A stretch of 46,896 bases of DNA from a virus (IMGVR_UViG_3300020169_000026), one strand, 5' to 3'. Counted from the first letter of the stretch, positions 1 to 46,322 are shown. Numbers and translations: made by a program. Notes: a model not told the origin generated them from the letters alone.

Positions 1-127
1 CCTAGCTCCATAAGCTCCATTTCCATCGAAGGGGGTAGAGGCATTATACCTCAGTCCCTAACCCAAAGATACGACGACCACCTGCTACAAAACCTAGCAC
101 ACGATCCACATTAAAGCACTTGTAGCC
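1..127. repeat. 127-bp terminal overlap, identical to 46770..46896 (circular assembly junction)
   Basis: The string cctagctccataagctccatttccatcgaagggggtagagg...cacttgtagcc is read identically at both window ends. ORFs run through the junction without disruption. Confidence 0.95.
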
Positions 128-2215: not shown

Positions 2216-2244
2216 TTCTTAACATGTTCCCACGTAGGGGTCAA
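2216..2244 (-). promoter_or_regulatory. Candidate leftward sigma70-type promoter (TTGACC-N17-TAAGAA with an upstream TG)
   Basis: On the minus strand the sequence reads TTGACC cctacgtgggaacatgt TAAGAA. It lies about 20 nt upstream of the SD of the first leftward gene, and its spacer is one copy of the CCCACGTAGGG motif. The -10 element is weak. Confidence 0.3.
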
Positions 2245-2304
2245 CTATTAATTCCCACGTAGGCTATTTCCCACGTAGGGGGTCTACTAATTCCCACGTA
2301 GGGG
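2227..2304 (+). repeat. Four tandem copies of TTCCCACGTAGG(GG)
   Basis: Copies are at 2227..2240, 2252..2263, 2268..2282 and 2291..2304. Each can form a CCC-ACGTA-GGG mini-hairpin. Confidence 0.9.
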
Positions 2305-2305
2305 T

Positions 2306-2456
2306 GTGACATAATTACCACTGTAATATAAATGCAACAGTGACATAAATGCAACGTGATATTATTACAACTTGACGTGACATATTTGCAACGTGACATA
2401 AATGCAACTGATTCTGTATTTTGTATTTTATCTATTGACAGTGACATAATTGCAAC
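2306..2456 (+). repeat. Array of seven 16-bp iterons, GTGACATAAATGCAAC
   Basis: Units are at 2306, 2323, 2340, 2356, 2377, 2393 and 2441. Six lie nearly head-to-tail, and the seventh forms the spacer of the candidate rightward promoter. Confidence 0.9.
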
Positions 2457-2464
2457 ACCATAAT
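2435..2464 (+). promoter_or_regulatory. Candidate rightward sigma70-type promoter (TTGACA-N18-CATAAT)
   Basis: TTGACA is at 2435..2440 and CATAAT at 2459..2464. Iteron 2441..2456 occupies the spacer. Confidence 0.35.
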
Positions 2465-2528
2465 TGATTCGTTTGTATGTGATTCGTTTCTACTACACAT
2501 TGTTATCATGCTGTCAAGTCATAGCTGG

Positions 2529-2639
2529 TATGCGTTCAATGCATATGTGACAATTTAACACTTGACTCCAATGTTTATGATTCGTTCTTCAGGTCTATGG
2601 TATGCATAAATTGCATGTTAGGTATGCGTCTAGTGCATA
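2529..2639. promoter_or_regulatory. Three operator-like palindromes, (GG)TATGC-N7-GCATA
   Basis: O1 is 2529..2545 (tatgc gttcaat gcata). O2 is 2601..2617 (tatgc ataaatt gcatg). O3 is 2623..2639 (tatgc gtctagt gcata). Confidence 0.6.
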
Positions 2640-3035
2640 GATATGTTTTGATTCGGCATCAGTCCATTTTAACACGAAACCGCGATTTGAGTCAACCCAC
2701 TTTATAACGCTCAAATTAGCCCCTCTGACGGCCTTTAGGTCTTTAGCGTGGTGTAACCCATAAAATTGATTCGGCGGCGTTACAGCGAGTCAAGTATAAA
2801 CGACATGCAGCAGAGTCATTATTTTTGAGTTTGTGACAATATAGCCACATGGATTCAGCTTCGATTCAGCTTGCAAACCCCTTATTTATATAGTAATAAT
2901 AGTATATCGAGTCCCCTTGGCTTCCTTGCAGTGATTCGATCCGACTTATAGGCGTTAGTCCCTGCGAGTTTTTGAGACCCAATTTGGGCTTAGATAAAAA
3001 CGCACTCTGGCCTCTGGTTTTAAGCGGTTTAAGTC

Positions 3036-3052
3036 TATGCCAATTAGGCATA
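3036..3052. promoter_or_regulatory. Fourth TATGC-N7-GCATA palindrome
   Basis: The sequence tatgc caattag gcata lies about 55 nt upstream of the first rightward ORF. Confidence 0.5.
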
Positions 3053-3106
3053 CTGACGAGTCGCAGTATCGACGAAACTTAAACACTGATATAAGGATTT
3101 ATCAAA

Positions 3107-3313
3107 ATGACACTTAAAGAAACATATACAAAGAAGTCTCTATTTTTATCACAAGCGCAAAGTTTTAACTTTGAGTTAAATGAAGAACAAATACTTGCCA
3201 AGGCATTAGATGTTGGTTTCGTTGTTAAAATTGGTGAAGACTTATATGAAGTAAATGTCAATTATGATGAAGTATCACAAGACGATATTGATTACCAAAA
3301 CGACACTTATTAA
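3107..3313 (+). CDS. Hypothetical early protein
   Basis: 68-aa ORF with an AAGGA SD inside the conserved AACACTGATAWAAGGATT box. Confidence 0.65.
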   Translation: MTLKETYTKKSLFLSQAQSFNFELNEEQILAKALDVGFVVKIGEDLYEVNVNYDEVSQDDIDYQNDTY

Positions 3314-3344
3314 ATTATTAACACTGATAAAAGGATTCTATATT

Positions 3345-3575
3345 ATGAAACATTATACTAACAAGATTTTTACTGACTCTCTAAAATCTGAATGGGTTAA
3401 CTACGCGGTTTTCCCGTCAACTTATACTGATAAGCAAATATTAAATTTTGCCGAGTCTCAAAATTGGCCTTTAGAGTCCTATTCGGATTCACATGGTTAT
3501 AGTAGTAAATTCAATTTGACTCGCAAGGGGTCGAGAGTCTTGTTTTCAGTTTTCGGAGGTTTAAATTATGTTTAA
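3345..3575 (+). CDS. Hypothetical early protein
   Basis: The track ORF is 3255..3575. The internal ATG at 3345 is preceded by the same AACACTGATAAAAGGATT box plus SD, so the 76-aa form is preferred. Confidence 0.65.
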   Translation: MKHYTNKIFTDSLKSEWVNYAVFPSTYTDKQILNFAESQNWPLESYSDSHGYSSKFNLTRKGSRVLFSVFGGLNYV

Positions 3576-3723
3576 GTTCTTAATTACTCTTTTAATAAGT
3601 ATCTTAATACTTGCCGCTTTTATCTTGTCTTGGTTAATGGCCTCTTTAGGGGATAACCTAGGCGCTATGCTAATTCTAATTGTGCCTATATATGGCGCGT
3701 TTATTCTATATAGGGAATCTTGA
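3568..3723 (+). CDS. Small membrane protein (51 aa, not in the ORF track)
   Basis: Hand translation gives MFKFLITLLISILILAAFILSWLMASLGDNLGAMLILIVPIYGAFILYRES, with two hydrophobic helices. There is a GGAGG SD, and the ORF overlaps the upstream stop. Confidence 0.6.
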   Translation: MFKFLITLLISILILAAFILSWLMASLGDNLGAMLILIVPIYGAFILYRES

Positions 3724-3724
3724 T

Positions 3725-3931
3725 ATGAATACTTATTTAATTACTTGGCGTGAAAAATTTTCTATGGAACGCGATGATGAAGGCAATCTATATAAAACTA
3801 GTTTCTTTGAACAACCATTTAAGGGCAACTATCCGAGTCGTGCGATTCAAAAATGGTCTAGACTCTGGAATTTAAAGGAGTCGGATTGTATGGAATTTAA
3901 GATTGAACTTATTAATGAAAAGGAGTCTTGA
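3725..3931 (+). CDS. Hypothetical early protein
   Basis: The track ORF is 3680..3931. The ATG at 3725 directly follows the upstream stop (TCTTGATATG junction), giving 68 aa. Confidence 0.6.
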   Translation: MNTYLITWREKFSMERDDEGNLYKTSFFEQPFKGNYPSRAIQKWSRLWNLKESDCMEFKIELINEKES

Positions 3932-3932
3932 T

Positions 3933-4199
3933 ATGCGTTATAAAATTACATCTCCTAGGGTCTTTATAGACACGCTTGAATCGTTTTTCGACGAACATGG
4001 TGGTTATAAATCTTATATTGTTAACGCTTTTTCAGATTACATGAAAACAGATTATGAGGATTACGTTGGTAGTTTCACAGACGCTTGTAACATTCGTGAT
4101 ATATTGAACGATTATTATGATCTAAACTTACCACCATTGGACGCGATTCAGTGGAGTCAATATGTCAATCACAATGCTAGTTACTTGGGAGAATCTTAA
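3933..4199 (+). CDS. Hypothetical early protein
   Basis: The track ORF is 3903..4199. The ATG at 3933 has an AAGGAG SD and the same TCTTGATATG junction, giving 88 aa. Confidence 0.65.
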   Translation: MRYKITSPRVFIDTLESFFDEHGGYKSYIVNAFSDYMKTDYEDYVGSFTDACNIRDILNDYYDLNLPPLDAIQWSQYVNHNASYLGES

Positions 4200-4403
4200 A
4201 TGTATGATGTAAATAAACTTGATGAAATAATTATTGGTGGTGTTGATCCAAGGGACTACCCTGATTTTTGCGATGCTTATATTGAGTCTGCTACCTATGA
4301 CGGGGTTATAATGACATATAAGCAACTTGATGAACTTAACGAACAAGAACCCTCGTTTGTTAATGAATACGCTTTATTAGATTTTTTAGGGGAGTCTAAA
4401 TAA
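4200..4403 (+). CDS. Hypothetical early protein
   Basis: 67-aa ORF whose start abuts the upstream stop. Confidence 0.65.
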   Translation: MYDVNKLDEIIIGGVDPRDYPDFCDAYIESATYDGVIMTYKQLDELNEQEPSFVNEYALLDFLGESK

Positions 4404-4561
4404 TGACACGCAATGAATTTTTCGAATTATGTGAAGAGCATTTAATTGATCCGTCTATAGCTCTTGAGAATGAGAACATAGCAAAAACTTTAGGTGTAGC
4501 TATAAAGAATAGGATTATAGAAAAAGCAAAGATTACACTTATACTAGAAGAGGAATTTTAA
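4403..4561 (+). CDS. Small hypothetical protein (52 aa, not in the ORF track)
   Basis: Hand translation gives MTRNEFFELCEEHLIDPSIALENENIAKTLGVAIKNRIIEKAKITLILEEEF, with a TAATG overlap to the upstream gene and a GGGGAG SD. Confidence 0.6.
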   Translation: MTRNEFFELCEEHLIDPSIALENENIAKTLGVAIKNRIIEKAKITLILEEEF

Positions 4562-4563
4562 TC

Positions 4564-5304
4564 ATGCCACGTAAAACTATTATATTATATCAAGGTGCGA
4601 GTCTTATAAATGGTCAACCTATTGTTGCATTAGCTCAATCAGATTCGACTAATAGCAAAACGGGTAACATGATTCAAACGTTTATCTTAGACGCTACTGT
4701 TGACCCTCTAGAGGCCTCTAGGACGGGACGGGACTCTTCTATCTGTGGTAGTTGTCCCCATAGAGGCACGCCAAATAATAACGATAAAGGCCAAGCGACA
4801 AATAGAACTTGTTATGTGACGTTAGCTCATGCCCCTTTAGGTAAATATAAGGCATATAAAAAGGGCGTGTATGGTACTAAGACCGCGACACTTAAAGAGA
4901 TTGAATCTTTTGGTAGTTTACAAGGGGTGCGTTTGGGTACATATGGAGATCCTTGCGCTGTCCCTAATGACATTTGGAAAGCCCTAACTATTAAAGCGTT
5001 ATATTCAACCGCTTACACTCATGCCGCTATCAACCCAATGCCAGAGTCAATCATGACTAGCACTGATAATCTTAAGCAATCTATTGATGCATGGAGTCGT
5101 GATGAAAGGACGTTTAGAGTCATATCTCATGTTGATCAACTATATAAGAGGCGTGAAATATTATGTCCAGCTAGTGAAGAGATGGGCAAGCGTGCGACGT
5201 GTGCTAGTTGTAAGTTATGCGGCGGTAGTAAAGTAAATGCTAAATCGATTGCTATTGTTGCACATGGAACAAGTAAACGTAAGGCAAAGGAGTTAGTGCA
5301 ATGA
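4564..5304 (+). CDS. Cys-rich hypothetical protein (possibly metal-binding)
   Basis: 246-aa ORF with Cys clusters ICGSCPHRG...CYV and CPASEE...CASCKLCGG. I do not recognise the family with confidence. Confidence 0.75.
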   Translation: MPRKTIILYQGASLINGQPIVALAQSDSTNSKTGNMIQTFILDATVDPLEASRTGRDSSICGSCPHRGTPNNNDKGQATNRTCYVTLAHAPLGKYKAYKKGVYGTKTATLKEIESFGSLQGVRLGTYGDPCAVPNDIWKALTIKALYSTAYTHAAINPMPESIMTSTDNLKQSIDAWSRDERTFRVISHVDQLYKRREILCPASEEMGKRATCASCKLCGGSKVNAKSIAIVAHGTSKRKAKELVQ

Positions 5305-5471
5305 ATATTTATGTAGGTTATTTTAATTTAGCGGGTAAGTTACATTGCTTTAGGGAATGCAAGAGTCTTAGTGAAGCGAATCTTTTCATCGATAACAGGA
5401 GAAACAACAGTAAATTAATCATAGCTAGAATATTATCTAATGAGGAAAGGGGTTTATATGTGAAACGATAG
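5301..5471 (+). CDS. Small hypothetical protein (56 aa, not in the ORF track)
   Basis: ATGA overlap with the stop of 4564..5304. Hand translation gives MNIYVGYFNLAGKLHCFRECKSLSEANLFIDNRRNNSKLIIARILSNEERGLYVKR. Confidence 0.45.
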   Translation: MNIYVGYFNLAGKLHCFRECKSLSEANLFIDNRRNNSKLIIARILSNEERGLYVKR

Positions 5472-5480
5472 GTAGTGAAA

Positions 5481-5525
5481 GCATAGGTTGAGTCGGTAGT
5501 ACCTCCCAAACGACTCAGCTTATGC
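5481..5525 (+). other. Long stem-loop (15-bp stem including 2 G-U pairs, 15-nt loop)
   Basis: The arm gcataggttgagtcg (5481..5495) pairs with cgactcagcttatgc (5511..5525). Confidence 0.7.
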
Positions 5526-5820
5526 CTTGCCGATTCGCCCTCCGAGTGCAACAGATTTTTACGAATGTCAAGGGAACCCTTAGAATCATACAGCTGATTC
5601 GCGGAGGGGTGTGGCTACCCATATGATTTCCAACATAAAAAAAAATAAAGTAGGTTCGAAGGGGTGTCATATTGTCACAGGTACGGCGGCTATATCATTT
5701 TCCCACGGAGTCATTACAAGAGAACGACACAAGAAGGCGACATTGGCTACCCACTTAAGTAAGCTGTCAAGAAAAAAGATTTGTTATATATCAACGACTT
5801 ATAAAATAGTTAAAATACTT

Positions 5821-5856
5821 ACTTCACACTTTTGTATAATAAGACATTATATATAC
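5821..5856 (+). promoter_or_regulatory. Promoter-like element A (ACTTCA-N18-CATTATATATA), upstream of the late operon
   Basis: About 30 of 35 nt match element B (41530..41564, minus strand), and the spacing is the same as in element C. A perfect TATAAT also lies at 5835..5840. Confidence 0.55.
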
Positions 5857-35104: not shown

Positions 35105-35242
35105 TTTAACACCTACTGCATCCATCGTAATTGCAAGACCTTCGAATAGAGTTTTTATATCTTGATTTAGCTTAGATATGATCCACACTAAGTAGGTAGA
35201 GAGAGCTAGATTACCTAACAGTATTCCTTCGTTTATTGTCAT
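35102..35242 (-). CDS. Small hypothetical protein (46 aa, not in the ORF track)
   Basis: ATGA overlap with the stop of 35239..35505. Hand translation gives MTINEGILLGNLALSTYLVWIISKLNQDIKTLFEGLAITMDAVGVK. Confidence 0.45.
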   Translation of the reverse strand: MTINEGILLGNLALSTYLVWIISKLNQDIKTLFEGLAITMDAVGVK

Positions 35243-35505
35243 TTATGTTTCTCCGATAATGCTTCATTCATACGCTTAAGATACCATTCAGCTTTCTTCA
35301 TATCCTCTACAGGATTAGCTTTGTACCTATACCTATGTTGATACTTAATCATGTTCCCATGACAGTAGGCTATAAAACCATCAGTACCTAAGACTTGTCT
35401 AATATAGTCAATACATTCAATACCTTCTTGGTTGTAGTGAGCAGGTTTATTAACTGGGTCGAAACCCATCTCTTGTTGTTTCTGATCTAAATTCCACTTA
35501 GCCAT
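35239..35505 (-). CDS. DUF3310-family protein
   Basis: The motif PAHYNQEGIECIDYI...NMIKYQHRYRYK...EDMKKAEWYL matches the DUF3310 pattern. Confidence 0.75.
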   Translation of the reverse strand: MAKWNLDQKQQEMGFDPVNKPAHYNQEGIECIDYIRQVLGTDGFIAYCHGNMIKYQHRYRYKANPVEDMKKAEWYLKRMNEALSEKHK

Positions 35506-35734
35506 TTTTGTTTAGGTGTTCCCTTAGTTCTGTATAGCCCCCAAGGTGAGTGCCATCTGGTTTAAATATTTGAGGTACTGTAGTATAGCCTGACTTACGC
35601 ATTAAAGTCAACAGCCACTTACTGCTTGGAGACTGGACATTGTATGTTGTTACCTGACTACCTGCGACACCCCTTAGTAGTTGTAAAGAGGCATCACAGA
35701 AGTTACATTGGTTTCTAGTTATTACTATCCACAT
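35498..35734 (-). CDS. Glutaredoxin/NrdH-like redoxin
   Basis: 78 aa with CNFC (CxxC) near the N-terminus and TVPQIF...GGYTEL. It is adjacent to the RNR gene. Confidence 0.8.
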   Translation of the reverse strand: MWIVITRNQCNFCDASLQLLRGVAGSQVTTYNVQSPSSKWLLTLMRKSGYTTVPQIFKPDGTHLGGYTELREHLNKNG

Positions 35735-37644
35735 TAAACGAGATCTACAATCTCACAGCTATCCCCAGAACAAGCTAATGTCTGGCTACCTGCTGTGTTA
35801 TCTTCTTGTTCATACTCTGATAGCTTAGACCAATCAATAGCTTTGGGCATTACATCTAGAAGTATCTCATAAGTTGTCTCATCACAGTCTTGATAAGGTG
35901 CTTGTTGATACGTATGTTCATTGAATGGTAAGAACGACACACCTGACATCTCATCAAAGTGTCTATACACAAATGCTCCTACTTCAAACCATTCGTCTTT
36001 CTTAACATTAATAGTCACACTAGGCTTATGCTCACACCAACTACGTTGATAAGCTAACCACATCTCTAGTTGTTGTATGGCTGACATATCGGCAGTAACT
36101 GTTGCACCCTCTGGAGCTTTCATAGGGAAGCTAAACACTGTAGTTTGTTCTGGCTTCATTACGTCTGGCTCATTAGGTATACCTTGATCCATCATAAACT
36201 TTGTTAACGGGTCTTTGTTGTCTCCGCGTACAGTGCGAATATAATAGGCTGAGTGACGAGCGTGAATCCCACTGCTAGAGTTAACCAGTTGGCTGACAGT
36301 ACCGCTTGGTTTAACACAGCTGATAGCAGTACTGACAGGGATATCAAGGCGTTTAGCCCAAGTAGCATTAGTATCGACAGCGATCTGTTTGAGGTGTCCA
36401 AGAGTATTCTCCAATCCTTTATTTGCGGTTGTCATTATAGGATTGTCCATGATACCTGTCATAGATACACCTAGTAGTCTTTCTTCTTCAGTATTCTTTT
36501 GCCATATCTTACGTAGGTATGGAAACTTAGTAAACGATGATTGTATAGTACCTAGTATTGTAGCTATTCTAACCTTACGTTCTAAGTCATCAACAGTATC
36601 TGTAGCACGTATAACTACTTCTGTTAAATTACAGAATTGTGCTGGCCTCAAAATTATCTCACTGCAAGGATTCGTCCCGAACTCAAAGCTAGGATCTCGT
36701 CTACCATTCTTAGCCGCTTGCTTCTTAGATGCTTCACGATTAAAGATACCACGTTCACCACTCCCACTTTCCACTAGAGCCATCCACTCACGCATAAACG
36801 ACAAACTGTCTGGCTTCTCGGTATAAGATACAGAGTTGTTAGCTAATGCTCTTTGTGGATCGTTATCCCACCATGAACCTGACTTAGCATGTCTCATACG
36901 ATCATCTGATAGATTAGATAATGAGATCATAGCAGACCTACGTACACCACCTACTACGACTACCTCACCTATCTTACACATAATATCGTGACACTCTAGA
37001 GACGATAGTCTACGTCCCTTAGCTTCTGTAAATACTTTAGTAACAAAGTTAAATAGGTCTATAAGAGGGGCTGGTCCAGATGCTCTACCACCAAAGGTCT
37101 TTAGCTTTGCACCTGCTGGTCTTACCTTAGATACATCCCACTTAGGTACTTCTCCGCTATACAACAATGCTATGAGTTGTCTTAGAGACTTAGCCCAACC
37201 TTCTTTACTGTCTTTTACAATAATAGTAGTATCACTGTTAAACATAGACTCAGGTATCTCAGGTAGTTTTTGTATAGACTGTCTCTCTACAGAGAACCCT
37301 ACACCTGTACCACACAACAATATAAACATAGCTTCGTCAAAGGCTTTAATATCATCTACAGCTAAGTAAGAGCAATTATAACCTGCTGTATTGTCGCGAG
37401 CCATAGCTGGACCAGCAGTCATGAGGGCGCGCATACTTGGGCAAACTTCTAGGTTTAGTATAGCTTCTTCTATCTCTGCTATCTGCTTAGGGTAATCTCC
37501 TAAAGCTGGCTTAACTAAGTTATCCATATACCTAGTTACTGTCTCTCCCCAAGACTCTCTTCTGCCTTCTGCTTCTAACCAACGAGCATAACGTGACTTG
37601 TGTATAAATGATTGGTAGTCTGTTGGTAAGTAGTTGTCACTCAT
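35734..37644 (-). CDS. nrdJ: Class II (adenosylcobalamin-dependent) ribonucleotide reductase
   Basis: 636 aa. The active-site motif TNPCSEIILRPAQFCNLTEV and the overall layout fit monomeric class II RNRs common in marine phages. Confidence 0.8.
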   Translation of the reverse strand: MSDNYLPTDYQSFIHKSRYARWLEAEGRRESWGETVTRYMDNLVKPALGDYPKQIAEIEEAILNLEVCPSMRALMTAGPAMARDNTAGYNCSYLAVDDIKAFDEAMFILLCGTGVGFSVERQSIQKLPEIPESMFNSDTTIIVKDSKEGWAKSLRQLIALLYSGEVPKWDVSKVRPAGAKLKTFGGRASGPAPLIDLFNFVTKVFTEAKGRRLSSLECHDIMCKIGEVVVVGGVRRSAMISLSNLSDDRMRHAKSGSWWDNDPQRALANNSVSYTEKPDSLSFMREWMALVESGSGERGIFNREASKKQAAKNGRRDPSFEFGTNPCSEIILRPAQFCNLTEVVIRATDTVDDLERKVRIATILGTIQSSFTKFPYLRKIWQKNTEEERLLGVSMTGIMDNPIMTTANKGLENTLGHLKQIAVDTNATWAKRLDIPVSTAISCVKPSGTVSQLVNSSSGIHARHSAYYIRTVRGDNKDPLTKFMMDQGIPNEPDVMKPEQTTVFSFPMKAPEGATVTADMSAIQQLEMWLAYQRSWCEHKPSVTINVKKDEWFEVGAFVYRHFDEMSGVSFLPFNEHTYQQAPYQDCDETTYEILLDVMPKAIDWSKLSEYEQEDNTAGSQTLACSGDSCEIVDLV

Positions 37645-37841
37645 TTCTTGCCGCCTCTTTCTTGTCTATCTTCTTTAAACCATATCATGCGATCTATGTC
37701 GCCGCGAGTAAGACCTATATCTTTTAGTTCTCTATCAGTTAACCTATTCAGATGTTTGACTGCATCTCTGTGCATCTGCCATGTAATCATGTAATTGATA
37801 AACCTATACCACCATCTACCAAACGCTCTTAGTATCCTCAT
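37641..37841 (-). CDS. DUF1127-domain small protein
   Basis: 66 aa. LNRLTDRELKDIGLTRGDIDRM is the DUF1127 signature (L..LsDr.L.DIGL.R.di). Confidence 0.7.
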   Translation of the reverse strand: MRILRAFGRWWYRFINYMITWQMHRDAVKHLNRLTDRELKDIGLTRGDIDRMIWFKEDRQERGGKK

Positions 37842-38155
37842 CTATTATCTCCTGATCCTTTTATCTTATCTCTATTCTTACGGCTTGTTAGCTTCTCAAT
37901 ATTTATGTCAGCTATCTCATCTAAGTTATAACCTATGTCATTAGCTAAGTTAGATAAGTACCACAGTACATCGCCTAATTCCTTCGCTACCTCATGTCGG
38001 TTAAACACACCATCTCTTACTTGCTTCTTAACCTTCTCAGCTACTTCCCCTGTCTCCCCACATAAACCTAAAGCAGGGTACAGAACCTTATGCGTTGCAG
38101 GGTATATAGCAAAGCTAACTGCTTTCTGTTGGTATTCTCTAAATCCTATTGTCAT
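37838..38155 (-). CDS. mazG: MazG-like nucleotide pyrophosphohydrolase
   Basis: The motifs GLCGETGEVAEKVKK...ELGDVLWYLSNLANDIG match the MazG EExxE/D pattern. Confidence 0.8.
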   Translation of the reverse strand: MTIGFREYQQKAVSFAIYPATHKVLYPALGLCGETGEVAEKVKKQVRDGVFNRHEVAKELGDVLWYLSNLANDIGYNLDEIADINIEKLTSRKNRDKIKGSGDNR

Positions 38156-38697
38156 ACTGTTCTTCCATAAAATTCTGTTGGTTTCATATCTTCTTTATAA
38201 GCGTCAAACAAGTACCAACAACAGTTGTCCTTACCTACACCCTTACTACCTTCTATCCACTTAACACGACCTATTGATACAACCTTAGAACAATAAGTCA
38301 TAAACAAAGCTGACTGCTTAGTGTGCATCCAATCAGCATCAAACAATAACCAAGTAGGACAGATACCTAACCAATGATCTATTAGTGGATGTAATATCTT
38401 TCTGTCCCATGGGGGGTTGGTTATCATATAGTCCATTACTCCATACCCACCAAAGTCAAGATTAAGAGCATTAGAAGTAAATATGTCGGTATGTCTTGGC
38501 TCAATGTCACTAGCATATATACACTCTCCTGTACCTTGAGTTAGTTTATTTATGTGCCTTATTAAGCGTCCGTCACCAGCACAAGGCTCTACATAGTCAA
38601 ATGCATATGGTAAGTGGTATACAAGAGGCTCTACAGCTTCTATAGGTGTTGGATAGTAATCTCTGGGTATTCTCTCAAAGTCACTACGTTTACCCAT
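38152..38697 (-). CDS. Short DNA N6-adenine methyltransferase (gamma-class motif order)
   Basis: YYPTP, EPCAGDG (motif I) and NPPW (motif IV). At only 181 aa there is no obvious large target-recognition domain. Confidence 0.7.
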   Translation of the reverse strand: MGKRSDFERIPRDYYPTPIEAVEPLVYHLPYAFDYVEPCAGDGRLIRHINKLTQGTGECIYASDIEPRHTDIFTSNALNLDFGGYGVMDYMITNPPWDRKILHPLIDHWLGICPTWLLFDADWMHTKQSALFMTYCSKVVSIGRVKWIEGSKGVGKDNCCWYLFDAYKEDMKPTEFYGRTV

Positions 38698-39460
38698 ACA
38701 ACTCCTTTAACCTCTTTAACGACACAAACTCTGGCTCATACATACCATTGTCTATCTCACGTTTGATTACTACACCCTTCCACCAATCAAGATTAGACTG
38801 ACCTGCCCAACCTTCTTCAGCGCCCTTAAAGCAACCTGCTACAAGTCCTATAGCTTTAGCTCCATCCTTAAACTTTAGATCACGTTTATGACTGTGGCCA
38901 CAAGTAGAGCTTGTGTATCTGTGACCTAACAGAGTATTAGCGTGGTGTAATCCAGACACAGCAGAACCGAAGTTACCTGCTTGGAAGAAGTGAGCATACG
39001 ACACACCATCATATACAGCTATAGATGGTCCTGAGTTTCTGTATTCGTGGTAGTCGTCGAACCAGTGGTCTGTTTGAAGATGCCCAAAGGATATCCCGTA
39101 TTTGTCTCCCTCAAGTCTGGGATCACTTTTGAGTGCCTTCTTAATCCTGTTTTCGTGGTTGCCTTCGAAGCCAATCCATCTGGGTCTTTTGTACTTTCGT
39201 TGACTGGGCTTTTGTCTAAGCCTATCCATAGATTCATTGTAATGCTCGATATCTTGTTCATAGCTCTGACTGACAATAGCTTCAGGACTCCTAGTATCAA
39301 AACTATTGAGAGAACGCATATCAGCACCATCACCAAGGTCGATAATATAGTTGGGGTTAACATCATATATTAATTCTCCTAGCCAATCAAATCTTTCGTT
39401 ACTTGTAGTAGGGTCTGCATGAGCGCAACTAAATACAACTGCTGTTTTAGACATATTCAT
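38690..39460 (-). CDS. Calcineurin-like metallophosphoesterase
   Basis: The motifs SCAHAD, DLGDGADM, GNHENR and GHSHK match the family. Confidence 0.8.
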   Translation of the reverse strand: MNMSKTAVVFSCAHADPTTSNERFDWLGELIYDVNPNYIIDLGDGADMRSLNSFDTRSPEAIVSQSYEQDIEHYNESMDRLRQKPSQRKYKRPRWIGFEGNHENRIKKALKSDPRLEGDKYGISFGHLQTDHWFDDYHEYRNSGPSIAVYDGVSYAHFFQAGNFGSAVSGLHHANTLLGHRYTSSTCGHSHKRDLKFKDGAKAIGLVAGCFKGAEEGWAGQSNLDWWKGVVIKREIDNGMYEPEFVSLKRLKELYG

Positions 39461-39677
39461 TTCCTTCGTGGGGTATATTTATAACTATAGGATCTATAGT
39501 AGATAAAAAGTAGGATTGGAATTTATAGGCGGCATCAAAGTTAATAAAAGGTATATCGTCTTGAAACATCTCCTTAGCTTCTACATCTTCTACACTGCAT
39601 GTTAACCACCAATTACCTTCTGGGCATTGAAATGGTCCGCTGATTACTCTGTGTACATGATAAGTTATTTGATCCAT
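39447..39677 (-). CDS. Hypothetical protein
   Basis: 76-aa ORF overlapping both neighbours in the operon. Confidence 0.55.
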   Translation of the reverse strand: MDQITYHVHRVISGPFQCPEGNWWLTCSVEDVEAKEMFQDDIPFINFDAAYKFQSYFLSTIDPIVINIPHEGNEYV

Positions 39678-40063
39678 TCGTCGGGTATCCTTTTGTCTGC
39701 ATATAGAAAGTTATTCTTCTCACACCACATAGCATATGTAGTCTTAGATCCTTTACGAATCTTATTCTTACTGTTGCTGAATACAAACCTTATGTCAAGG
39801 TCAGGGTTTTGTTCTCTAACCTTAAGGTGCTTCTTCCTATCGTCTGGAACGAACCTTCCTTTTGATTCAATTATGATACCATTGGGTAGTATAAAGTCAG
39901 GGGTGTAAGTCTTGTTCTCTACTAACTTCCAGTTTATCTTAACTGTCTCGTAGCCAAAGTCTACACCCCTGTCCTTGAGGTCTTTCGATATGACATCCTC
40001 AAGCCCAGAACGATAACCATTCTTTATAGCTTGTTGTCGGATCTTACTTTTGGTGGTTGCCAT
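39665..40063 (-). CDS. T7 gp3-like endonuclease I (Holliday junction resolvase)
   Basis: YRSGLEDVISKDL...YTPDFILPNGIIIESKGRFVPDDRKKHLKVREQNPDLDIRFVFS...IPDEWIK aligns closely with T7 endonuclease I. Confidence 0.9.
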   Translation of the reverse strand: MATTKSKIRQQAIKNGYRSGLEDVISKDLKDRGVDFGYETVKINWKLVENKTYTPDFILPNGIIIESKGRFVPDDRKKHLKVREQNPDLDIRFVFSNSKNKIRKGSKTTYAMWCEKNNFLYADKRIPDEWIK

Positions 40064-40743
40064 ATCTCTTCCTCTTCTCTCCTAAGCCATAACAGCCTAG
40101 CGTTTTCTATTACTCTATCTTCATTTCCATCGTAGGCTTTAACGACACAATCCCAGAGATCTTCTTCTGTCTCTGCATCATCTAATATCTTCTTAGCCTT
40201 AACTGGACCAACACGAAACAGACCTACTATATTGTCTGCTGTATCTCCTGTTAGTATCTGAGTATAGAAGAACTTAATTCCCCCGAAGGGGGTTACTTCT
40301 AGATAGTCGCCTCTAACTATGTTAAAGTGCCAACAAGGTAACTGTAGCATGTCTTTATCTATAGAGGCTACACAAGCCTTGTAATCTAGTCTGGCGGCTT
40401 CTTTAGCAATGAGGTCATCGGCTTCCTCTCCTTTACTTATGATTGCTTGATACTTGCTTTCCATGTGATCTCTAGCGGTCTGCAAGTGTCTAGGTTTCTG
40501 AACGCTTTTTCTATTTCCCTTGTAGGGGTAGGACTTAGCTATATCATCTCTGAAGTTACCTTTACCTGTAAGGTACACAGAATAATCTAAACCTATCTCT
40601 GGAAATAATACGGTGCTATCTAAAATGAATTCTATGAGGTCATCAACTTTATCTCTTGTGTCTTGTGACCCCATCTGTTCAGTGGAGAAGGCCGCACGAT
40701 AAGCAATTATGTCTCCATCGATTAGAACCTTCCCCATATCCAT
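40024..40743 (-). CDS. T7 gp6-like 5'-3' exonuclease (FEN family)
   Basis: LIDGDIIAY, YKGNRK..KP, EADD, SIDKD, GDTADNIVG and LWDCV are blocks shared with T7 gp6. Confidence 0.75.
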   Translation of the reverse strand: MDMGKVLIDGDIIAYRAAFSTEQMGSQDTRDKVDDLIEFILDSTVLFPEIGLDYSVYLTGKGNFRDDIAKSYPYKGNRKSVQKPRHLQTARDHMESKYQAIISKGEEADDLIAKEAARLDYKACVASIDKDMLQLPCWHFNIVRGDYLEVTPFGGIKFFYTQILTGDTADNIVGLFRVGPVKAKKILDDAETEEDLWDCVVKAYDGNEDRVIENARLLWLRREEEEIWQPPKVRSDNKL

Positions 40744-40944
40744 TTAAGTGTCACCCCACATCATCTCACCATCTTCGCACTCGAAACCTACAGACTTAAC
40801 ATAGGTGAAACCAAAAGCATGTGCGGCTTCAGCAAATAGTTGAGCTAACTCGTGGGCTTCTGTAATATCGTCCCTACTCATATCAACGCTTCCGCTGTAA
40901 CCATCATCATCTTTTTCCATGTACGCATTAACACTTACTCTCAT
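40744..40944 (-). CDS. Hypothetical acidic protein
   Basis: 66-aa ORF, operon-packed. Confidence 0.55.
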   Translation of the reverse strand: MRVSVNAYMEKDDDGYSGSVDMSRDDITEAHELAQLFAEAAHAFGFTYVKSVGFECEDGEMMWGDT

Positions 40945-40953
40945 AGTCTTTCC

Positions 40954-41502
40954 TTATACAATAAATAGCTCATCATCTTCTGTGATAGCATTGTTTTCTT
41001 CATATGGTACGTGATCTGTTACACCTACATTTAGTAGACGAACACCTGCACCTTGAGCATAAACCTCAAACTGAACTTTAGCTTTAGTGCCATTACCTAA
41101 AGCACCATCCTCAGAGAAGCTCCATAGTCTTTTCTTCTCTCTTCCTTCAGTTAAGTTTACTACTGTAGGTGCGCCACCATAGTCTATTGTAACAGGCTCT
41201 CCATTACGATCAGTAAAGTTTTTTACATCAGATATCTTACGTTTTATCTTCATGTACTTACCTATACCAAGGTCTGCATTACCTTGTCTTATCCTATCAC
41301 TATTCATAGGATGTAAGTCTAAACCCTCTTTCTCTAGGTGTCCTATCTGTGCTTCTTCAGTAAAGTAAGCGTTGGTAATATACTGCCCACCTTGACTGTG
41401 TACTGCTTGTGCGGCGCGTGGTCCATCTGCACTTCCCATATCCGCATTTTCTGGAAATACTTTCGCATATTCTAGTATCATATCCATTGTGTATTTAGCC
41501 AT
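40954..41502 (-). CDS. T7 gp2.5-like ssDNA-binding protein (DUF2815-like)
   Basis: 182 aa with an acidic, aromatic C-terminal tail (TEDDELFIV). It lies within the T7-like replisome, and promoter-like element B lies upstream. Confidence 0.6.
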   Translation of the reverse strand: MAKYTMDMILEYAKVFPENADMGSADGPRAAQAVHSQGGQYITNAYFTEEAQIGHLEKEGLDLHPMNSDRIRQGNADLGIGKYMKIKRKISDVKNFTDRNGEPVTIDYGGAPTVVNLTEGREKKRLWSFSEDGALGNGTKAKVQFEVYAQGAGVRLLNVGVTDHVPYEENNAITEDDELFIV

Positions 41503-41529
41503 GTCGAGTTCCTTTCGGCTGTTGGTACT

Positions 41530-41564
41530 TATATATAATGTCTTATTTAGACAAAGTGTGAAGT
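41530..41564 (-). promoter_or_regulatory. Promoter-like element B (ACTTCA-N18-CATTATATATA)
   Basis: The minus strand reads ACTTCAcactttgtctaaataagaCATTATATATA. It lies about 35 nt upstream of the SSB start codon, and the leader carries an AAAGGA SD. Confidence 0.55.
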
Positions 41565-41579
41565 AGAAATAAAAATAAA

Positions 41580-43415
41580 TTAGTGTATGTCTGCGTAGGT
41601 CTTACCGAACTGTGCATCTACACCTAATGGTACATTGAGTTCTAACTTTTGATTAAGGTTTTCAATAGCTTGCTCCATTGTAGTTTTTGTTTGCTCTTCG
41701 TTACCTTCTGGTACGAGTGCGATGATTTCGTCGTGGAATTGTCCGATGGTTTTAATTCCGTAGCGACGACATAAAGATACCCAACTGTCAAAACAAAATA
41801 CTCCTGTTCCTTGATTTAATGTAGAGAACTTATCCTTGTCACTACGTAAGCTGTACCAGAAGTTTGATACAGGATTCAGTAGCCACATAGACCCAAATAA
41901 GTCTCTTGTACGTGCTGTATTAGCTACCTTATCTACTGACCAATTACGTGACCAGAAGGCTTCTAGCAATACTGTAGCCTCTTCTTTACTCATGCCTGTA
42001 TTACGTGACAAAGTAGAAGATCCTACACCATACGTAGCACTATAGTTAACTACTTTATAGTTCTTACGTAGGGCTGACAGGGATCTCTCTCCACTGTTAT
42101 GTTTGTCTATGTCCTCTTGTGTAATTATACCTGCGTGTTTAGCTAAGTCTAAGTGTGGATCAAAGCCTTCCTTAGACATCTCCTCTACGTAATCAGGGTC
42201 TAATGGCTTCATGTAGTGACGCTTAGTTGTATCCTCTAGTGAGGTCATATCAGCACCACATAATGTATATCCATCTGGACAAGTCAAACAACCTCTTATC
42301 TCTTTACCATACGGCTTATCTACAGCAGGTAAGTTAACGAGAGGCTTGGCATGTTTAAACCTAAGAGTATTAGTTAGACCTGCTATGTTAGCCTGTACGT
42401 ATCCATCTACTTGTGCATTAACCATAGCTTTGATAACACCTATACGATGAGACAATACAGATAGACCATCAAGTAAGTTTATAGCAGGTTCTTTATCTGC
42501 TAGTGCTTTTACTGATCTACACAACTCTGCATCCTTACGTACTTGTTCTAGCTTTCTAGTGTCGCCTGTAACCTTATCACGTAAGAACTTATATGTACGT
42601 GGTTGCCAACCTAACGAGAATAACCAGTCCTTAACTTGATCTGTACTGTTAGGGTTAGCTCTTTCTTCACCTACCTTAACTGTAAGAGATTGTGTAGACT
42701 GTGGTTGTTTCTGCTCTTTACATAGTGCTACCCACTTCTCTCCATTAGATGATAACGACCCATCCTTTTTGTGCATAACTTTAGGTTTGTTACGTACTGC
42801 TGTAACAATCTTACGTGGCATAGCATCAGCAAGTAATTCAGTCTTCTCAGCCTTTAGGCTTTCCCATGTAGCCAGATAATCTTCTGCTTTACCTACGTCC
42901 AATTTCCACTGTAGGGACTCTTGCTCTTTAGCACATTCCATCTTGAATGTCATGTAGTCAATAAGTCTATCCCTATTTCCACTGTCGGGGTATAGCTTGT
43001 CTAGCTTTATACTCAGGTCACGCCATAGTCTTACGTTGATCCTTACATCTTCTTCACACCTGTATTGATATTCTTCTGGACTTAAGTTCTTCCAGTCATT
43101 GATCTCAGGTTTAGGTACACCATACATCTCACCATACTGTGCTAGTCCATGCTTCTGTAGGTGGTGGTTTATGTACCAAGCTAAAGGTAGTGTATCTATA
43201 ATCCTAGCGTCTACTTTTATGTCTAGGATCTTTTCCACTACAGGTATATCATACCTAACTATGTTGTGACCTATAAGTGTGTCAGCGTTAAGAAAGAATG
43301 TTCTCATCTCTTCATAGTCAAAGGTAGATTGTATCTGACCCTCTTCATTTGTGTAAGATACTACGTGTATCTTTGTGGGGTTGAACCCATCTGTTTCTAT
43401 ATCAAATACTGGCAT
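41580..43415 (-). CDS. Family A DNA polymerase with 3'-5' exonuclease domain (T7 gp5-like)
   Basis: FDIETDG (Exo I), KVVNYSATYG (motif B-like) and QFHDEII (motif C). 611 aa. Confidence 0.9.
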   Translation of the reverse strand: MPVFDIETDGFNPTKIHVVSYTNEEGQIQSTFDYEEMRTFFLNADTLIGHNIVRYDIPVVEKILDIKVDARIIDTLPLAWYINHHLQKHGLAQYGEMYGVPKPEINDWKNLSPEEYQYRCEEDVRINVRLWRDLSIKLDKLYPDSGNRDRLIDYMTFKMECAKEQESLQWKLDVGKAEDYLATWESLKAEKTELLADAMPRKIVTAVRNKPKVMHKKDGSLSSNGEKWVALCKEQKQPQSTQSLTVKVGEERANPNSTDQVKDWLFSLGWQPRTYKFLRDKVTGDTRKLEQVRKDAELCRSVKALADKEPAINLLDGLSVLSHRIGVIKAMVNAQVDGYVQANIAGLTNTLRFKHAKPLVNLPAVDKPYGKEIRGCLTCPDGYTLCGADMTSLEDTTKRHYMKPLDPDYVEEMSKEGFDPHLDLAKHAGIITQEDIDKHNSGERSLSALRKNYKVVNYSATYGVGSSTLSRNTGMSKEEATVLLEAFWSRNWSVDKVANTARTRDLFGSMWLLNPVSNFWYSLRSDKDKFSTLNQGTGVFCFDSWVSLCRRYGIKTIGQFHDEIIALVPEGNEEQTKTTMEQAIENLNQKLELNVPLGVDAQFGKTYADIH

Positions 43416-45561: not shown

Positions 45562-45630
45562 ACTTACGTTTCTTTCTATTAGTAATTATATTATTAAGTT
45601 ATAACTTACGTTAATACTTAAGTAGGCATT

Positions 45631-45665
45631 TATCTATAATGTCGTTTTAGGTTAAATGATGAAGT
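45631..45665 (-). promoter_or_regulatory. Promoter-like element C (ACTTCA-N18-CATTATAGATA)
   Basis: It has the same end blocks and spacing as elements A and B. It overlaps the 3' end of the sigma gene and lies upstream of the primase-helicase gene. Confidence 0.45.
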
Positions 45666-46155: not shown

Positions 46156-46322
46156 AAGAATAGACCAGTCATATATAACATTGCCTTAACTAGTACGAAA
46201 GCAAATCCTATAAACGAGAATCCTATCATAGTAAAAAATAAAATACTTATGTACTTAGCTACTCTTAGTTCTTCTTGTTTCATCTTATCTGTCCTGTAAT
46301 ATGGTTTATACTCTTTACTCAT
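46152..46322 (-). CDS. Small membrane protein (56 aa, not in the ORF track)
   Basis: Hand translation gives MSKEYKPYYRTDKMKQEELRVAKYISILFFTMIGFSFIGFAFVLVKAMLYMTGLFL. ATGA overlaps at both ends. Confidence 0.55.
   Translation of the reverse strand: MSKEYKPYYRTDKMKQEELRVAKYISILFFTMIGFSFIGFAFVLVKAMLYMTGLFL

What the first reader, a model, noticed from the sequence alone, without database searches (positions are those of the whole stretch)
2450..5720. Strong, strand-biased enrichment of GAGTC / GANTC pentamers in the rightward early region
By eye I count about 50 GANTC sites in 3.3 kb, roughly one per 65 bp. From base composition I would expect about one per 280 bp, and the late genes look much sparser. 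About 21 of these are GAGTC on the + strand against about 6 GACTC.

Inside ORFs the GAGTC copies fall in all three codon phases (GAG-TCn, nGA-GTC, G-AGT-C), so the signal is at the DNA level rather than in the peptides.

GANTC is the CcrM/HinfI-type methylation target and GAGTC is the PleI/MlyI/N.BstNBI-type site. Phages normally deplete restriction sites rather than enrich them.

Possible explanations are methylation-dependent timing of early expression, a Chi-like oriented protection signal near the packaging end, or a target for the phage's own short methyltransferase (38152..38697).
Basis: partly seen in the sequence, partly recalled or inferred. Interest (0 to 1): 0.62.

Follow-up and report, generated by a model that had tools for sequence, protein, structure and literature searches.

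The report
GANTC island in phage early operon
A marine phage that has purged the five-letter methylation word GANTC from almost all of its DNA packs it about fourfold too densely into one fast-changing 3.3-kb block of early genes, most likely so that the host's DNA-methylation reading machinery switches those genes on.

Summary
There are 49 GANTC sites in 2450-5720 against about 12 expected, and 54 in the other 43.6 kb against about 157 expected.

The window is a complete, circularly assembled genome of a CRP-6-type marine podophage. The named relative infects a Rhodobacteraceae host, which methylates GANTC.

The island runs from the best sigma-70-like promoter (2435-2464) to the first phage-specific promoter-like element (5821). 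Most relatives, including CRP-6, have such an island although its gene content is replaced even between 93-98% identical genomes.

All four GANTC variants are enriched about 3.6x in islands and depleted to about 0.26x in backbones. Other avoided restriction sites never exceed expectation in the island.

About 28% of island sites are YGATTCG, the published Caulobacter GcrA consensus. They sit 0-15 nt after the -10 of sigma-70-like promoters at both island ends.

The + strand bias is real in this window but is not a family trait, so a Chi-like reading fails.

Best reading (about 0.4): a CcrM-methylation-read control domain of the host-RNA-polymerase-dependent early operon.

ORF 38152-38697 has the catalytic fold of an N6-adenine methyltransferase; its specificity is unknown.

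This scan noted genome-wide GANTC lattices in other phages. This regional, unevenly spaced island in a purged genome is different.

The parts
2465..5712 (.). GANTC island: 49 sites, 15 per kb, against 1.2 per kb elsewhere in the genome
2435..2464 (+). Best sigma-70-like promoter of the region (TTGACA-N18-CATAAT, 11 of 12), the presumed rightward early promoter. The island starts at its last base.
   Evidence: A consensus match only; no transcript data.
2465..2486 (+). Two TGATTCG heptamers (2465-2471 and 2480-2486), 0 and 15 nt after the -10 hexamer, so around the predicted start site
   Evidence: TGATTCG is the Caulobacter GcrA consensus (PMC4647560). GcrA sites lie from the promoter to about +40/+50 (PMC5887438).
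2465..3106 (+). 642-nt untranslated leader with 14 GANTC (2.3 expected). It holds six of the genome's seven TGATTCG copies (2465, 2480, 2578, 2649, 2767, 2932), all on the + strand.
   Evidence: No Rfam family and no tRNA.
2666..2695 (-). Leftward sigma-70-like promoter (TTGACT-N18-TAAAAT with TG extension). The heptamer at 2649-2655 lies 10 nt after its -10.
3107..5471 (+). Nine small early ORFs with 28 GANTC in ORFs (13.7 expected from synonymous shuffling). Five gene junctions carry GGANTCT-type sites 9-11 nt before the next start codon (3334, 3715, 3923, 4191, 4392).
4564..5304 (+). The only widely conserved island gene (DUF7227 / phrog_2554, related to the GP88 family), function unknown. 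Homologues each keep 5-11 GANTC, with some positions conserved and others turning over.
   Evidence: AlphaFold model pLDDT 86.6 with no significant PDB neighbour.
5472..5820 (+). Non-coding trailer with 6 GANTC. It holds a weaker sigma-70-like promoter (TTTACG-N17-TAGAAT, 5558-5586) followed by TGATTCG at 5595, plus CGATTCG at 5531. The homologous spot in relatives is a near-perfect TTGACA-N17-TATAAT promoter followed by YGATTCG.
5821..5856 (+). Phage-specific promoter-like 36-mer (ACTTCACACTTT...GACATTATATATA), one of three co-oriented copies (also at 41564 and 45665 on the - strand). It marks the right border of the island and the start of the terS/late operon.
2227..2456 (.). Divergent control region just left of the island: four TTCCCACGTAGGGG boxes and an array of GTGACATAAATGCAAC-like repeats
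   Evidence: Homologous boxes precede the islands of relatives.
38152..38697 (-). 181-aa protein with the catalytic core of an N6-adenine methyltransferase (motif I EPCAGDG, motif IV NPPW) and no recognisable target-recognition domain. Candidate writer of the mark; specificity unknown.
   Evidence: Present in island-bearing CRP-6, G003 and G011; absent from island-less G002 and G006.

Best explanation
The island is a cis-acting, methylation-read control domain of the phage's host-RNA-polymerase-dependent rightward early operon.

GANTC is the site methylated by the conserved alphaproteobacterial enzyme CcrM, and possibly also by the phage's own small adenine methyltransferase. Like its hosts, the phage keeps GANTC out of ordinary coding DNA. 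It concentrates the word where a methyl mark is meant to be read.

The clearest readers' sites are YGATTCG heptamers placed at the start sites of sigma-70-type promoters at both ends of the island, and in arrays in the 5' leader. [quoted passage not shown]

Inferred mechanism: the infecting, methylated genome recruits GcrA-loaded host polymerase to the early promoters. Newly replicated, under-methylated copies lose this boost while phage-specific promoters take over.

**Shown:** the statistics, the borders, conservation across relatives, the heptamer bias and the promoter adjacency.

For: - **Enrichment and depletion.** The counts are exact: 49 against 11.7 expected inside, 54 against about 157 outside. 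They survive synonymous-codon shuffling.
- **The unit of selection is degenerate GANTC.** Across 14 phages, GAWTC and GASTC are enriched 3.5x and 3.7x in islands and depleted to 0.26 and 0.27 in backbones. That fits a CcrM/HinfI-type reader, not a larger protein motif (flank table).
- **Specific to GANTC.** CCGG, CCWGG, CGCG, AAGCTT and CAATTG are purged in the backbone and stay at or below expectation in the island.
- **Borders match a transcription unit.** The island runs from the strongest sigma-70-like promoter to a phage-specific promoter-like element.
- **Family trait despite gene turnover.** About 80 IMG/VR loci show 8-16 sites per kb from -4 kb to -0.5 kb of TerL against 0.4-1.4 elsewhere. 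CRP-6 has 38 sites in its last 2.9 kb. L010 has 93-96% identical flanks but a non-homologous interior.
- **GcrA-like heptamer.** TGATTCG occurs 7 times on + and 0 times on -, only in the island (0.23 expected, P about 5e-9). YGATTCG makes up 163 of 581 unique island sites and is 5x over flank expectation. It equals the GcrA consensus TGATTCG / YGAKTCK (PMC4647560).
- **Promoter adjacency.** YGATTCG lies 0-15 nt after the -10 of sigma-70-like promoters in the window (three promoters). It does so too at a conserved consensus promoter 700-870 bp before TerL in the eight relatives where the scan found it. This is within the published range of GcrA sites (PMC5887438).
- **Host context.** Marine Rhodobacteraceae methylate GANTC, and alphaproteobacterial genomes under-represent it about 3.4-fold (PMC8919816). 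Hosts enrich it in intergenic DNA (PMC3973325). GANTC methylation has been detected in marine Caudovirales MAGs (PMC9516812).
- **Lineage contrast.** CRP-7 infects the same host strain but carries its own RNA polymerase. It has no island and no TGATTCG.
Against:
- GcrA needs sites only near promoters. That does not explain 28 sites inside ORFs, or arrays lying upstream of -35, where the published model says tethered GcrA cannot reach.
- Of the eight YGAKTCK heptamers only YGATTCG is enriched. TGAGTCG, TGAGTCT and CGATTCT are under-represented.
- GcrA specificity is known from Caulobacter, not from Rhodobacterales.
- The host of this particular genome is inferred from a relative and from alphaproteobacterial TerL homologues.
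- A sub-clade with about 85% identical TerL has no island and carries TAGGTTGT repeats in the same leader position. This shows the arrays could be sites for some exchangeable factor.
- Promoters are consensus matches at chance density overall: 18 found against 16.9 in shuffles.
Confidence: 0.4

Rival explanations
1. The YGATTCG elements are operators or iterons for some other sequence-specific protein, phage-encoded or host. Examples are a replication initiator acting at an origin next to the iteron array, or a packaging or partition factor. The GANTC word inside them is incidental or secondary. The rest of the island is GANTC-rich for a linked reason, such as the same protein binding weaker sites.
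For: - Direct, same-orientation arrays with 11/18-bp spacing: L071 has nine GATTCGTTC units in about 120 bp.
- They lie next to conserved boxes and to the GTGACATAAATGCAAC repeats.
- Island-less relatives carry a different repeat (TAGGTTGT) at the same place.
- Only YGATTCG, not the whole YGAKTCK set, is enriched.
- Precedents exist for methylase-site heptamer arrays in the P1 pac site and P1 oriR/oriC. This is from my own knowledge and was not checked here.
- An earlier scan note describes an iteron array with incidental GANTC (e1-1370249, unchecked).
Against: - It does not explain the equal 3.5-3.7x enrichment of all four GANTC variants.
- It does not explain the 28 ORF-internal sites in three codon phases with no flank consensus.
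- It does not explain the simultaneous purge of GANTC from the backbone.
- No candidate binding protein was found: Pfam and PHROG scans of the small ORFs gave nothing relevant.
Confidence: 0.22
2. The pattern is restriction-related. The backbone avoids GANTC because some hosts pair CcrM with a HinfI-type nuclease. The island is tolerated or favoured because it is protected, for example by methylation from the phage enzyme or by early anti-restriction products, or because it recruits a methyltransferase onto incoming DNA.
For: - The genome shows textbook multi-site restriction avoidance: CCGG 0 against 70 expected, GCWGC 0 against 42, CCWGG 1 against 42, and AAGCTT, CAATTG and AAATTT all 0.
- Avoidance of other sites is weaker in islands than in backbones.
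- A methyltransferase-fold gene co-occurs with island-bearing genomes in the few contigs long enough to judge: 4 with it against 2 without.
- GANTC depletion in pelagiphages has been read as R-M evasion (PMC9516812).
Against: - Relaxed avoidance predicts sites at expectation, not 3.6x above it.
- Fifty unprotected sites would be lethal under a HinfI-type enzyme, while full protection would remove the need to purge the backbone.
- The backbone depletion (0.26) equals the depletion of the hosts' own genomes (log2 O/E -1.78), which needs no restriction enzyme.
- No nuclease was identified.
Confidence: 0.13
3. GANTC-containing junction words (GGANTCT followed by a stop codon and ATG) and dispersed GANTC sites are recombination micro-homologies or cut sites. 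They drive cassette exchange in the hypervariable early region, so the density is a by-product or a cause of shuffling.
For: - The island interior is replaced between genomes whose flanks are 93-98% identical.
- Many metagenomic contigs break inside it.
- Five of eight gene junctions carry GANTC 9-11 nt before the start codon.
- GGAGTCN makes up 18% of island sites in relatives.
- The phage encodes endonuclease I, a 5'-3' exonuclease and an HNH/AP2 nuclease.
Against: - Junction sites account for only about 10-18% of sites.
- GGAG is simply a ribosome-binding site.
- Sites inside a conserved gene are partly conserved in position across 57-74% identical homologues, which is not what scars would look like.
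- A 5-bp word is too short for homologous exchange.
Confidence: 0.1
4. Chance, base composition or an assembly artefact.
For: The island is slightly more AT-rich than the rest.
Against: - P is about 1e-16.
- The pattern survives codon shuffling.
- It is reproduced in an isolate genome and in dozens of independent metagenomic contigs.
Confidence: 0.01

Closest known systems
GcrA/CcrM-dependent sigma-70 promoters of Caulobacter and other Alphaproteobacteria (Haakonsen 2015, PMC4647560; Wu 2018, PMC5887438)
   Same: - The same word (GANTC) and the same preferred heptamer (TGATTCG).
- Sites placed between the promoter and about +15 of sigma-70-type promoters.
- Host genomes likewise avoid GANTC in genes and enrich it in regulatory DNA.
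   Different: - Here the word fills a whole 3-6 kb operon, coding DNA included, at 10-19 sites per kb.
- It lies in a virus whose remaining DNA is purged.
- Arrays also lie upstream of promoters.
- No methylation or GcrA dependence has been shown.
Clusters of orphan-methylase sites in cis elements of enterobacterial replicons: P1 pac (seven TGATCA/G), P1 oriR and E. coli oriC GATC clusters
   Same: - Short heptamer repeats carrying a methylase site.
- They are arrayed next to replication or packaging control regions and read according to methylation state.
   Different: - Those clusters span 100-250 bp and use Dam/GATC.
- This one spans kilobases, uses GANTC, and has no known SeqA-like reader in Alphaproteobacteria.
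GANTC depletion in pelagiphages and alphaproteobacterial genomes (PMC9516812, PMC8919816, PMC3973325)
   Same: The backbone depletion (O/E 0.26-0.35) matches what these papers report for hosts and for some phages.
   Different: None of the papers I read describes a local island of enrichment inside a depleted phage genome.
Genome-wide, evenly spaced GANTC 'lattice' phages noted earlier in this scan (e1-3266739, e1-3278466, e1-3266656; AI notes)
   Same: The same word at a similar local density, about one per 58-67 bp, written into coding and non-coding DNA.
   Different: - Here it is confined to about 7% of the genome and the rest is purged.
- Spacing is not even: the gap CV is 0.84-2.3 in 13 of 14 islands.
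- A methyltransferase-like gene is present.

Membership tests
GcrA/CcrM-dependent methylated promoter | GANTC site located between the promoter elements and about +40/+50 of a sigma-70-type promoter | tested here: met
   Sites lie 0 and 15 nt after the -10 of the 2435-2464 promoter, 10 nt after the leftward 2695-2666 promoter, and 9 nt after the 5558-5586 promoter. Relatives show +3 to +9. The promoters are predictions only.
GcrA/CcrM-dependent methylated promoter | Extended recognition element YGAKTCK (consensus TGATTCG) | tested here: met
   TGATTCG occurs 7 times against 0.23 expected. YGATTCG is 5x over flank expectation across 14 phages. The other YGAKTCK members are not enriched.
GcrA/CcrM-dependent methylated promoter | The adenine of the site is N6-methylated in vivo | not testable with these tools
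GcrA/CcrM-dependent methylated promoter | The host encodes CcrM and GcrA, and transcription depends on them | not tested
   The host is inferred from CRP-6 (Rhodobacteraceae) and from alphaproteobacterial TerL homologues. GANTC methylation in marine Rhodobacteraceae comes from the literature. No GcrA gene was found in CRP-6 or G003 or among the 31 small window ORFs scanned.
Restriction-site avoidance | The recognition word is under-represented throughout the genome | tested here: not met
   Met for the backbone (O/E 0.26-0.35) but inverted in the island (3.6-4.2x).
Chi-like oriented protection or recombination signal | A non-palindromic word with a consistent strand orientation conserved among relatives | tested here: not met
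   The word is a palindrome type. The 37:12 bias is specific to this window. CRP-6 shows 19:19, and relatives roughly 54:46 (from the bin counts).
Iteron-type replication origin | Direct repeats in one orientation with regular spacing next to an initiator gene; origin activity | tested here: inconclusive
   Arrays of GATTCGTTC with 11/18-bp spacing occur in L071 and L075. The window has a looser arrangement. No initiator was identified and no functional data exist.
N6-adenine DNA methyltransferase (for ORF 38152-38697) | SAM-binding motif I and catalytic (D/N)PP(Y/F/W) motif IV on a class I Rossmann fold | tested here: met
   EPCAGDG and NPPW are invariant in 25 homologues. The AlphaFold model has pLDDT 85. 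Top Foldseek hits are M.TaqI, PacII and CamA (E about 1e-6, TM about 0.55). phrog_799 scores E 5e-31. There is no Pfam hit. rRNA and tRNA methyltransferases also appear among the fold hits.
N6-adenine DNA methyltransferase (for ORF 38152-38697) | A target-recognition domain that defines sequence specificity | tested here: not met
   The protein has only 181 aa and aligns to the catalytic domain alone. No separate domain was seen. GANTC specificity is therefore unsupported.
Genome-wide GANTC lattice phages (earlier notes of this scan) | Genome-wide excess with unusually even spacing | tested here: not met
   The excess is regional. The gap CV is about 1 or higher in 13 of 14 islands.

The most novel reading that the evidence does not exclude
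The island is an epigenetic sensor written across a whole operon. The density of CcrM sites lets the phage read the methylation state of its own DNA (parental and fully methylated, versus freshly replicated), or the host's cell-cycle stage (whether GcrA or CcrM is available). That reading sets the early-to-late switch, and purging the word elsewhere prevents misreading. A kilobase-scale, methylation-read regulatory domain of this kind has not been described in a virus in any paper I found.
Probability: 0.25. Interest if true: 0.8.

Novelty: new variant of a known kind. Interest (0 to 1): 0.66.

Why it matters
CRP-6-type phages are among the abundant viruses of coastal oceans, and they infect slow-growing Roseobacter-type bacteria whose cell cycle is run by the CcrM/GcrA methylation circuit.

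If the island is read through that circuit, it would be a clear case of a lytic phage plugging its early programme into host epigenetic cell-cycle control. It would also give a testable reason why GANTC is selected against in ordinary coding DNA of both host and phage.

It also offers a practical marker. A GANTC island with YGATTCG promoters identifies the host-dependent early, hypervariable module in uncultured relatives, which is probably rich in counter-defence genes.

Tried and rejected
**Searches that found nothing**
- Megablast of the island against phage records: no match.
- Rfam and tRNA scans: nothing.
- Pfam and PHROG scans of the island ORFs: only DUF7227/phrog_2554.
- AlphaFold model of the DUF7227 protein: no significant PDB neighbour.
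- A GcrA gene in CRP-6, G003 and the 31 small window ORFs scanned: none.
- A wider flank consensus around all GANTC sites: none.

**Spacing**
- The helical or even-spacing idea did not hold. Short gaps of 11-19 bp are in excess but the CV is about 1.

**How general the island is**
- An IMG/VR scan for TGATTCG triplets returned mostly unrelated tandem repeats. The island-like hits checked for window genes were CRP-6-type.
- CRP-7, from the same host strain, has no island.
- Sphingomonadales prophages with 38-53% identical TerL have no island.

**Ideas rejected or left open**
- 'Recently imported foreign DNA' is rejected. Other avoided sites stay at or below expectation, while GANTC alone is 3.6x over.
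- The link between the methyltransferase gene and the island could be judged in only about six contigs from two clades, so it is suggestive only.
- Physical genome ends could not be determined. The window is a circular assembly with a 127-bp overlap.

Full report
**1.

Exact counting gives 49 GANTC sites in 2450-5720: 21 GAGTC, 6 GACTC, 6 GAATC and 16 GATTC.

- Base composition predicts 11.7 sites (1 per 279 bp); Poisson P is about 4e-16.
- GAGTC and GATTC are the two most over-represented of all 1024 pentamers in the region (z 12.5 and 6.7).
The remaining 43.6 kb has only 54 sites against about 157 expected, so the genome outside the island is purged about threefold.
- In the island ORFs, synonymous-codon shuffling expects 13.7 sites and 28 are seen (z 5.9). 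In the late genes it expects 72.9 and 34 are seen (z -6.4).
- ORF-internal sites use all three codon phases (15, 3 and 10), and 21 sites are non-coding.

The signal is therefore at DNA level.

**2. What the DNA is**

- The window ends in a 127-bp exact overlap, so it is a circularly assembled complete genome of about 46.8 kb.
- Its structural genes are about 79% identical at nucleotide level to Roseobacter phage CRP-6. That phage is a podovirus isolated on Rhodobacteraceae strain FZCC0042 (PMC6918029).
- More distant TerL homologues in bacterial genomes are almost all in Alphaproteobacteria.
- Layout: leftward replication and nucleotide-metabolism genes, a divergent control region with repeated boxes (2227-2456), a 642-nt untranslated leader, nine small rightward ORFs (3107-5471), a 540-nt non-coding stretch, then terS/TerL and the late genes.

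**3. The borders coincide with a transcription unit**

- The first GANTC (2466) begins two bases after the -10 hexamer of the best sigma-70-like promoter in the region, TTGACA-N18-CATAAT at 2435-2464.
- The last site (5708) lies about 110 bp before a 36-nt element that occurs three times in the genome, each copy heading an operon: 5821 on +, and 41564 and 45665 on -.
- The phage has no RNA polymerase gene of its own and has a weak sigma-like ORF.
- The island therefore looks like the rightward early unit read by host polymerase. This is inference from sequence; there are no transcript data.

**4. It is a family trait that survives gene turnover**

- Across 80 IMG/VR loci found with TerL, GANTC density is 8-16 per kb from about -4 kb to -0.5 kb of TerL and 0.4-1.4 per kb elsewhere.
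- CRP-6 itself has 38 sites in its last 2.9 kb and 0-3 per kb elsewhere.
- The island interior is hypervariable. L010 has flanks 93-96% identical to the window, but nothing there matches window 2793-5616. L004, at 98.5% identity, diverges upstream of 5301. Many contigs break inside the island.
- In the one widely shared island gene (DUF7227), homologues of 57-74% identity each keep 5-11 sites. Some positions are conserved and others are gained or lost.
- Density is therefore maintained while content changes.
- A sub-clade with about 85% identical TerL lacks the island, has different upstream genes, and carries TAGGTTGT repeats in the leader.
- CRP-7, which infects the same host strain but has its own T7-like RNA polymerase, has no island (O/E 0.53, no TGATTCG).
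- Sphingomonadales prophages with related TerL have none either.
- The island is lineage-specific, not imposed by the host.

**5. The selected unit is the degenerate word GANTC**

Pooled over 14 phages:

| Word | Islands, observed / expected | Ratio | Backbones, observed / expected | Ratio |
|---|---|---|---|---|
| GANTC | 667 / 186 | 3.6x | 195 / 739 | 0.26x |
| GAWTC | 378 / 107.0 | 3.5x | 108 / 420.7 | 0.26x |
| GASTC | 289 / 78.1 | 3.7x | 87 / 319.1 | 0.27x |

- Flanking positions show no general consensus.
- This points to a reader with CcrM/HinfI-type recognition.
- The window backbone also shows extreme avoidance of other palindromes: CCGG 0 against 70 expected, GCWGC 0 against 42, CCWGG 1 against 42, and AAGCTT, CAATTG and AAATTT all 0.
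- In islands those sites are less strictly purged but never exceed expectation. GANTC alone flips to excess.
- The island is therefore neither simply foreign DNA nor simply exempt from avoidance.

**6. Two oriented sub-motifs stand out**

Among 581 unique-context island sites:
- YGATTCG accounts for 163. TGATTCG is 5.1x and CGATTCG 4.7x over flank expectation.
- GGAGTCN accounts for 103.
- The rest run at 6.2 per kb, still 1.7x expectation and 6x the backbone.

In the window:
- TGATTCG occurs seven times, all on the + strand and all in the island's two non-coding stretches, and nowhere else in the genome (0.23 expected).
- GGANTCT-type sites sit 9-11 nt before the start codon at five of eight gene junctions, so they double as ribosome-binding sites.
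- These two classes explain much of the + strand bias. It is 37:12 (P 0.0005), falling to 23:12 (P 0.09) without them.
- The bias is absent in CRP-6 and weak in relatives.
- A Chi-like reading, or a reading specific to GAGTC, is therefore not supported.

**7. The link to the host methylation reader**

- TGATTCG is exactly the consensus derived for Caulobacter GcrA; the broader form is YGAKTCK (PMC4647560).
- GcrA rides on sigma-70 and activates promoters that carry a methylated site. The site can lie anywhere from the promoter to about +40/+50 (PMC5887438).
- In the window, heptamers lie as follows:
  - 0 and 15 nt after the -10 of the rightward early promoter;
  - 10 nt after the -10 of a leftward promoter (2695-2666);
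  - 9 nt after the -10 of a promoter at 5558-5586.
- The last of these is homologous to a near-perfect TTGACA-N17-TATAAT promoter 700-870 bp upstream of TerL. The promoter scan found it in eight of the other loci. A YGATTCG follows 3-9 nt later, in some as the double palindrome GAATCGATTC. CRP-6, L021 and L054 carry a TTGACA and a TGATTCG at the equivalent position.
- The three island-less relatives examined lack any YGATTCG there.
- Marine Rhodobacteraceae methylate GANTC, and alphaproteobacterial genomes under-represent it about 3.4-fold. That is the same magnitude as the phage backbone (PMC8919816). They enrich it in intergenic DNA (PMC3973325).

**8. Interpretation**

The best-supported reading (about 0.4) is that the phage follows the host's rule on a larger scale. 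It keeps GANTC out of DNA where a methyl mark would be misread, and concentrates it in the host-polymerase-dependent early module, with GcrA-type sites at the promoters.

A plausible consequence is that methylated infecting genomes fire the early operon while freshly replicated, under-methylated copies do not.

Weak points:
- Methylation and GcrA dependence are not shown.
- Promoter-proximal logic does not explain the roughly 50% of sites inside ORFs, or arrays lying upstream of -35.
- Only YGATTCG is enriched, not the whole YGAKTCK set.

Rivals:

| Rival | Confidence |
|---|---|
| The heptamer arrays are operators or iterons for another factor, with GANTC partly incidental | 0.22 |
| A restriction-linked explanation | 0.13 |
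| Recombination junction words driving cassette exchange | 0.10 |
| Chance | 0.01 or less |

**9. The candidate writer**

- ORF 38152-38697 matches phrog_799, annotated 'DNA methyltransferase'.
- It carries invariant EPCAGDG and NPPW motifs.
- It folds like the catalytic domain of M.TaqI (pLDDT 85).
- It has no Pfam hit, no target-recognition domain and no characterised homologue among more than 5,400 relatives.
- It is present in the four island-bearing genomes long enough to judge and absent from two island-less contigs. That amounts to two clades, so the association is only suggestive.
- Its specificity for GANTC is untested.

**10. Novelty**

- The papers I found describe GANTC depletion in alphaproteobacteria and in some pelagiphages.
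- None describes a local enrichment island in a purged phage genome.
- Earlier notes of this scan report other phages with a genome-wide, evenly spaced GANTC lattice. Here the excess is regional, the spacing is Poisson-like or clustered, and the backbone is purged.
- I class it as a new variant of a known kind, namely methylase-site clusters used as cis-regulatory marks.

Noticed in passing
window, whole genome: Extreme multi-site restriction avoidance. CCGG is 0 against about 70 expected, GCWGC 0 outside the island against 42, CCWGG 1 against 42, and AAGCTT, CAATTG and AAATTT are all 0. GCWGC is not avoided in pooled relatives (O/E 1.2), so this lineage seems to face a different restriction repertoire.
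   Followed up: partly
window 1-127 and 46770-46896: An exact 127-bp overlap of the two window ends. It is probably a circular assembly overlap rather than a true terminal repeat. The true genome length is about 46,769 bp.
   Followed up: partly
window 2793-5616, compared with L010 6149-7882 and L004 1-518: The early region is a hypervariable cassette zone. Its interior is replaced between genomes whose flanks are 93-98% identical, and many metagenomic contigs break here.
   Followed up: partly
L069 6550-6960 (island-less relative): In the position of the GATTCG arrays, this sub-clade carries at least seven copies of TAGGTTGT-like repeats. It also has a 496-aa ORF, an M28-peptidase-like ORF and a C5 cytosine methyltransferase nearby.
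   Followed up: no
L030, L071 and L035, about 865 bp upstream of TerL: A perfect TTGACA-N17-TATAAT promoter is followed by the double palindrome CGAATCGATTCG and a conserved GG...CCCCTACATCTACAAA segment. This may be a conserved leader or small RNA ahead of terS.
   Followed up: no
window 4564-5304: A DUF7227/GP88-related protein with conserved Cys residues in CxxC-type motifs (C61, C64, C83, C201, C213, C216, C219). It has a confident AlphaFold model but no PDB structural neighbour, and about 1,900 homologues in marine metagenomes.
   Followed up: partly
window 38152-38697: A minimal 181-aa methyltransferase core without a recognition domain. It belongs to a family of more than 5,400 proteins; the 120 best hits listed carry no functional name and no Pfam domain.
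   Followed up: partly
window 2527-2639: Three GGTATGC-N7-GCATA-type palindromes are interleaved with the TGATTCG sites in the leader. A face-to-face pair of sigma-70-like promoters (2435-2464 on +, 2695-2666 on -) suggests a convergent-promoter switch.
   Followed up: no
window small leftward ORFs (44-2447; 35239-46813): Pfam hits among the small ORFs include DUF1127, DUF3310, an HNH_3 plus AP2 nuclease, glutaredoxin and an NrdR-like zinc ribbon. The individual ORFs were not assigned.
   Followed up: no
L206-L285: TerL homologues of 38-53% identity lie in many Sphingomonas, Allosphingosinicella and Stakelama genomes and in a Roseibium genome. They are probably prophages, and they have no GANTC island.
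   Followed up: partly
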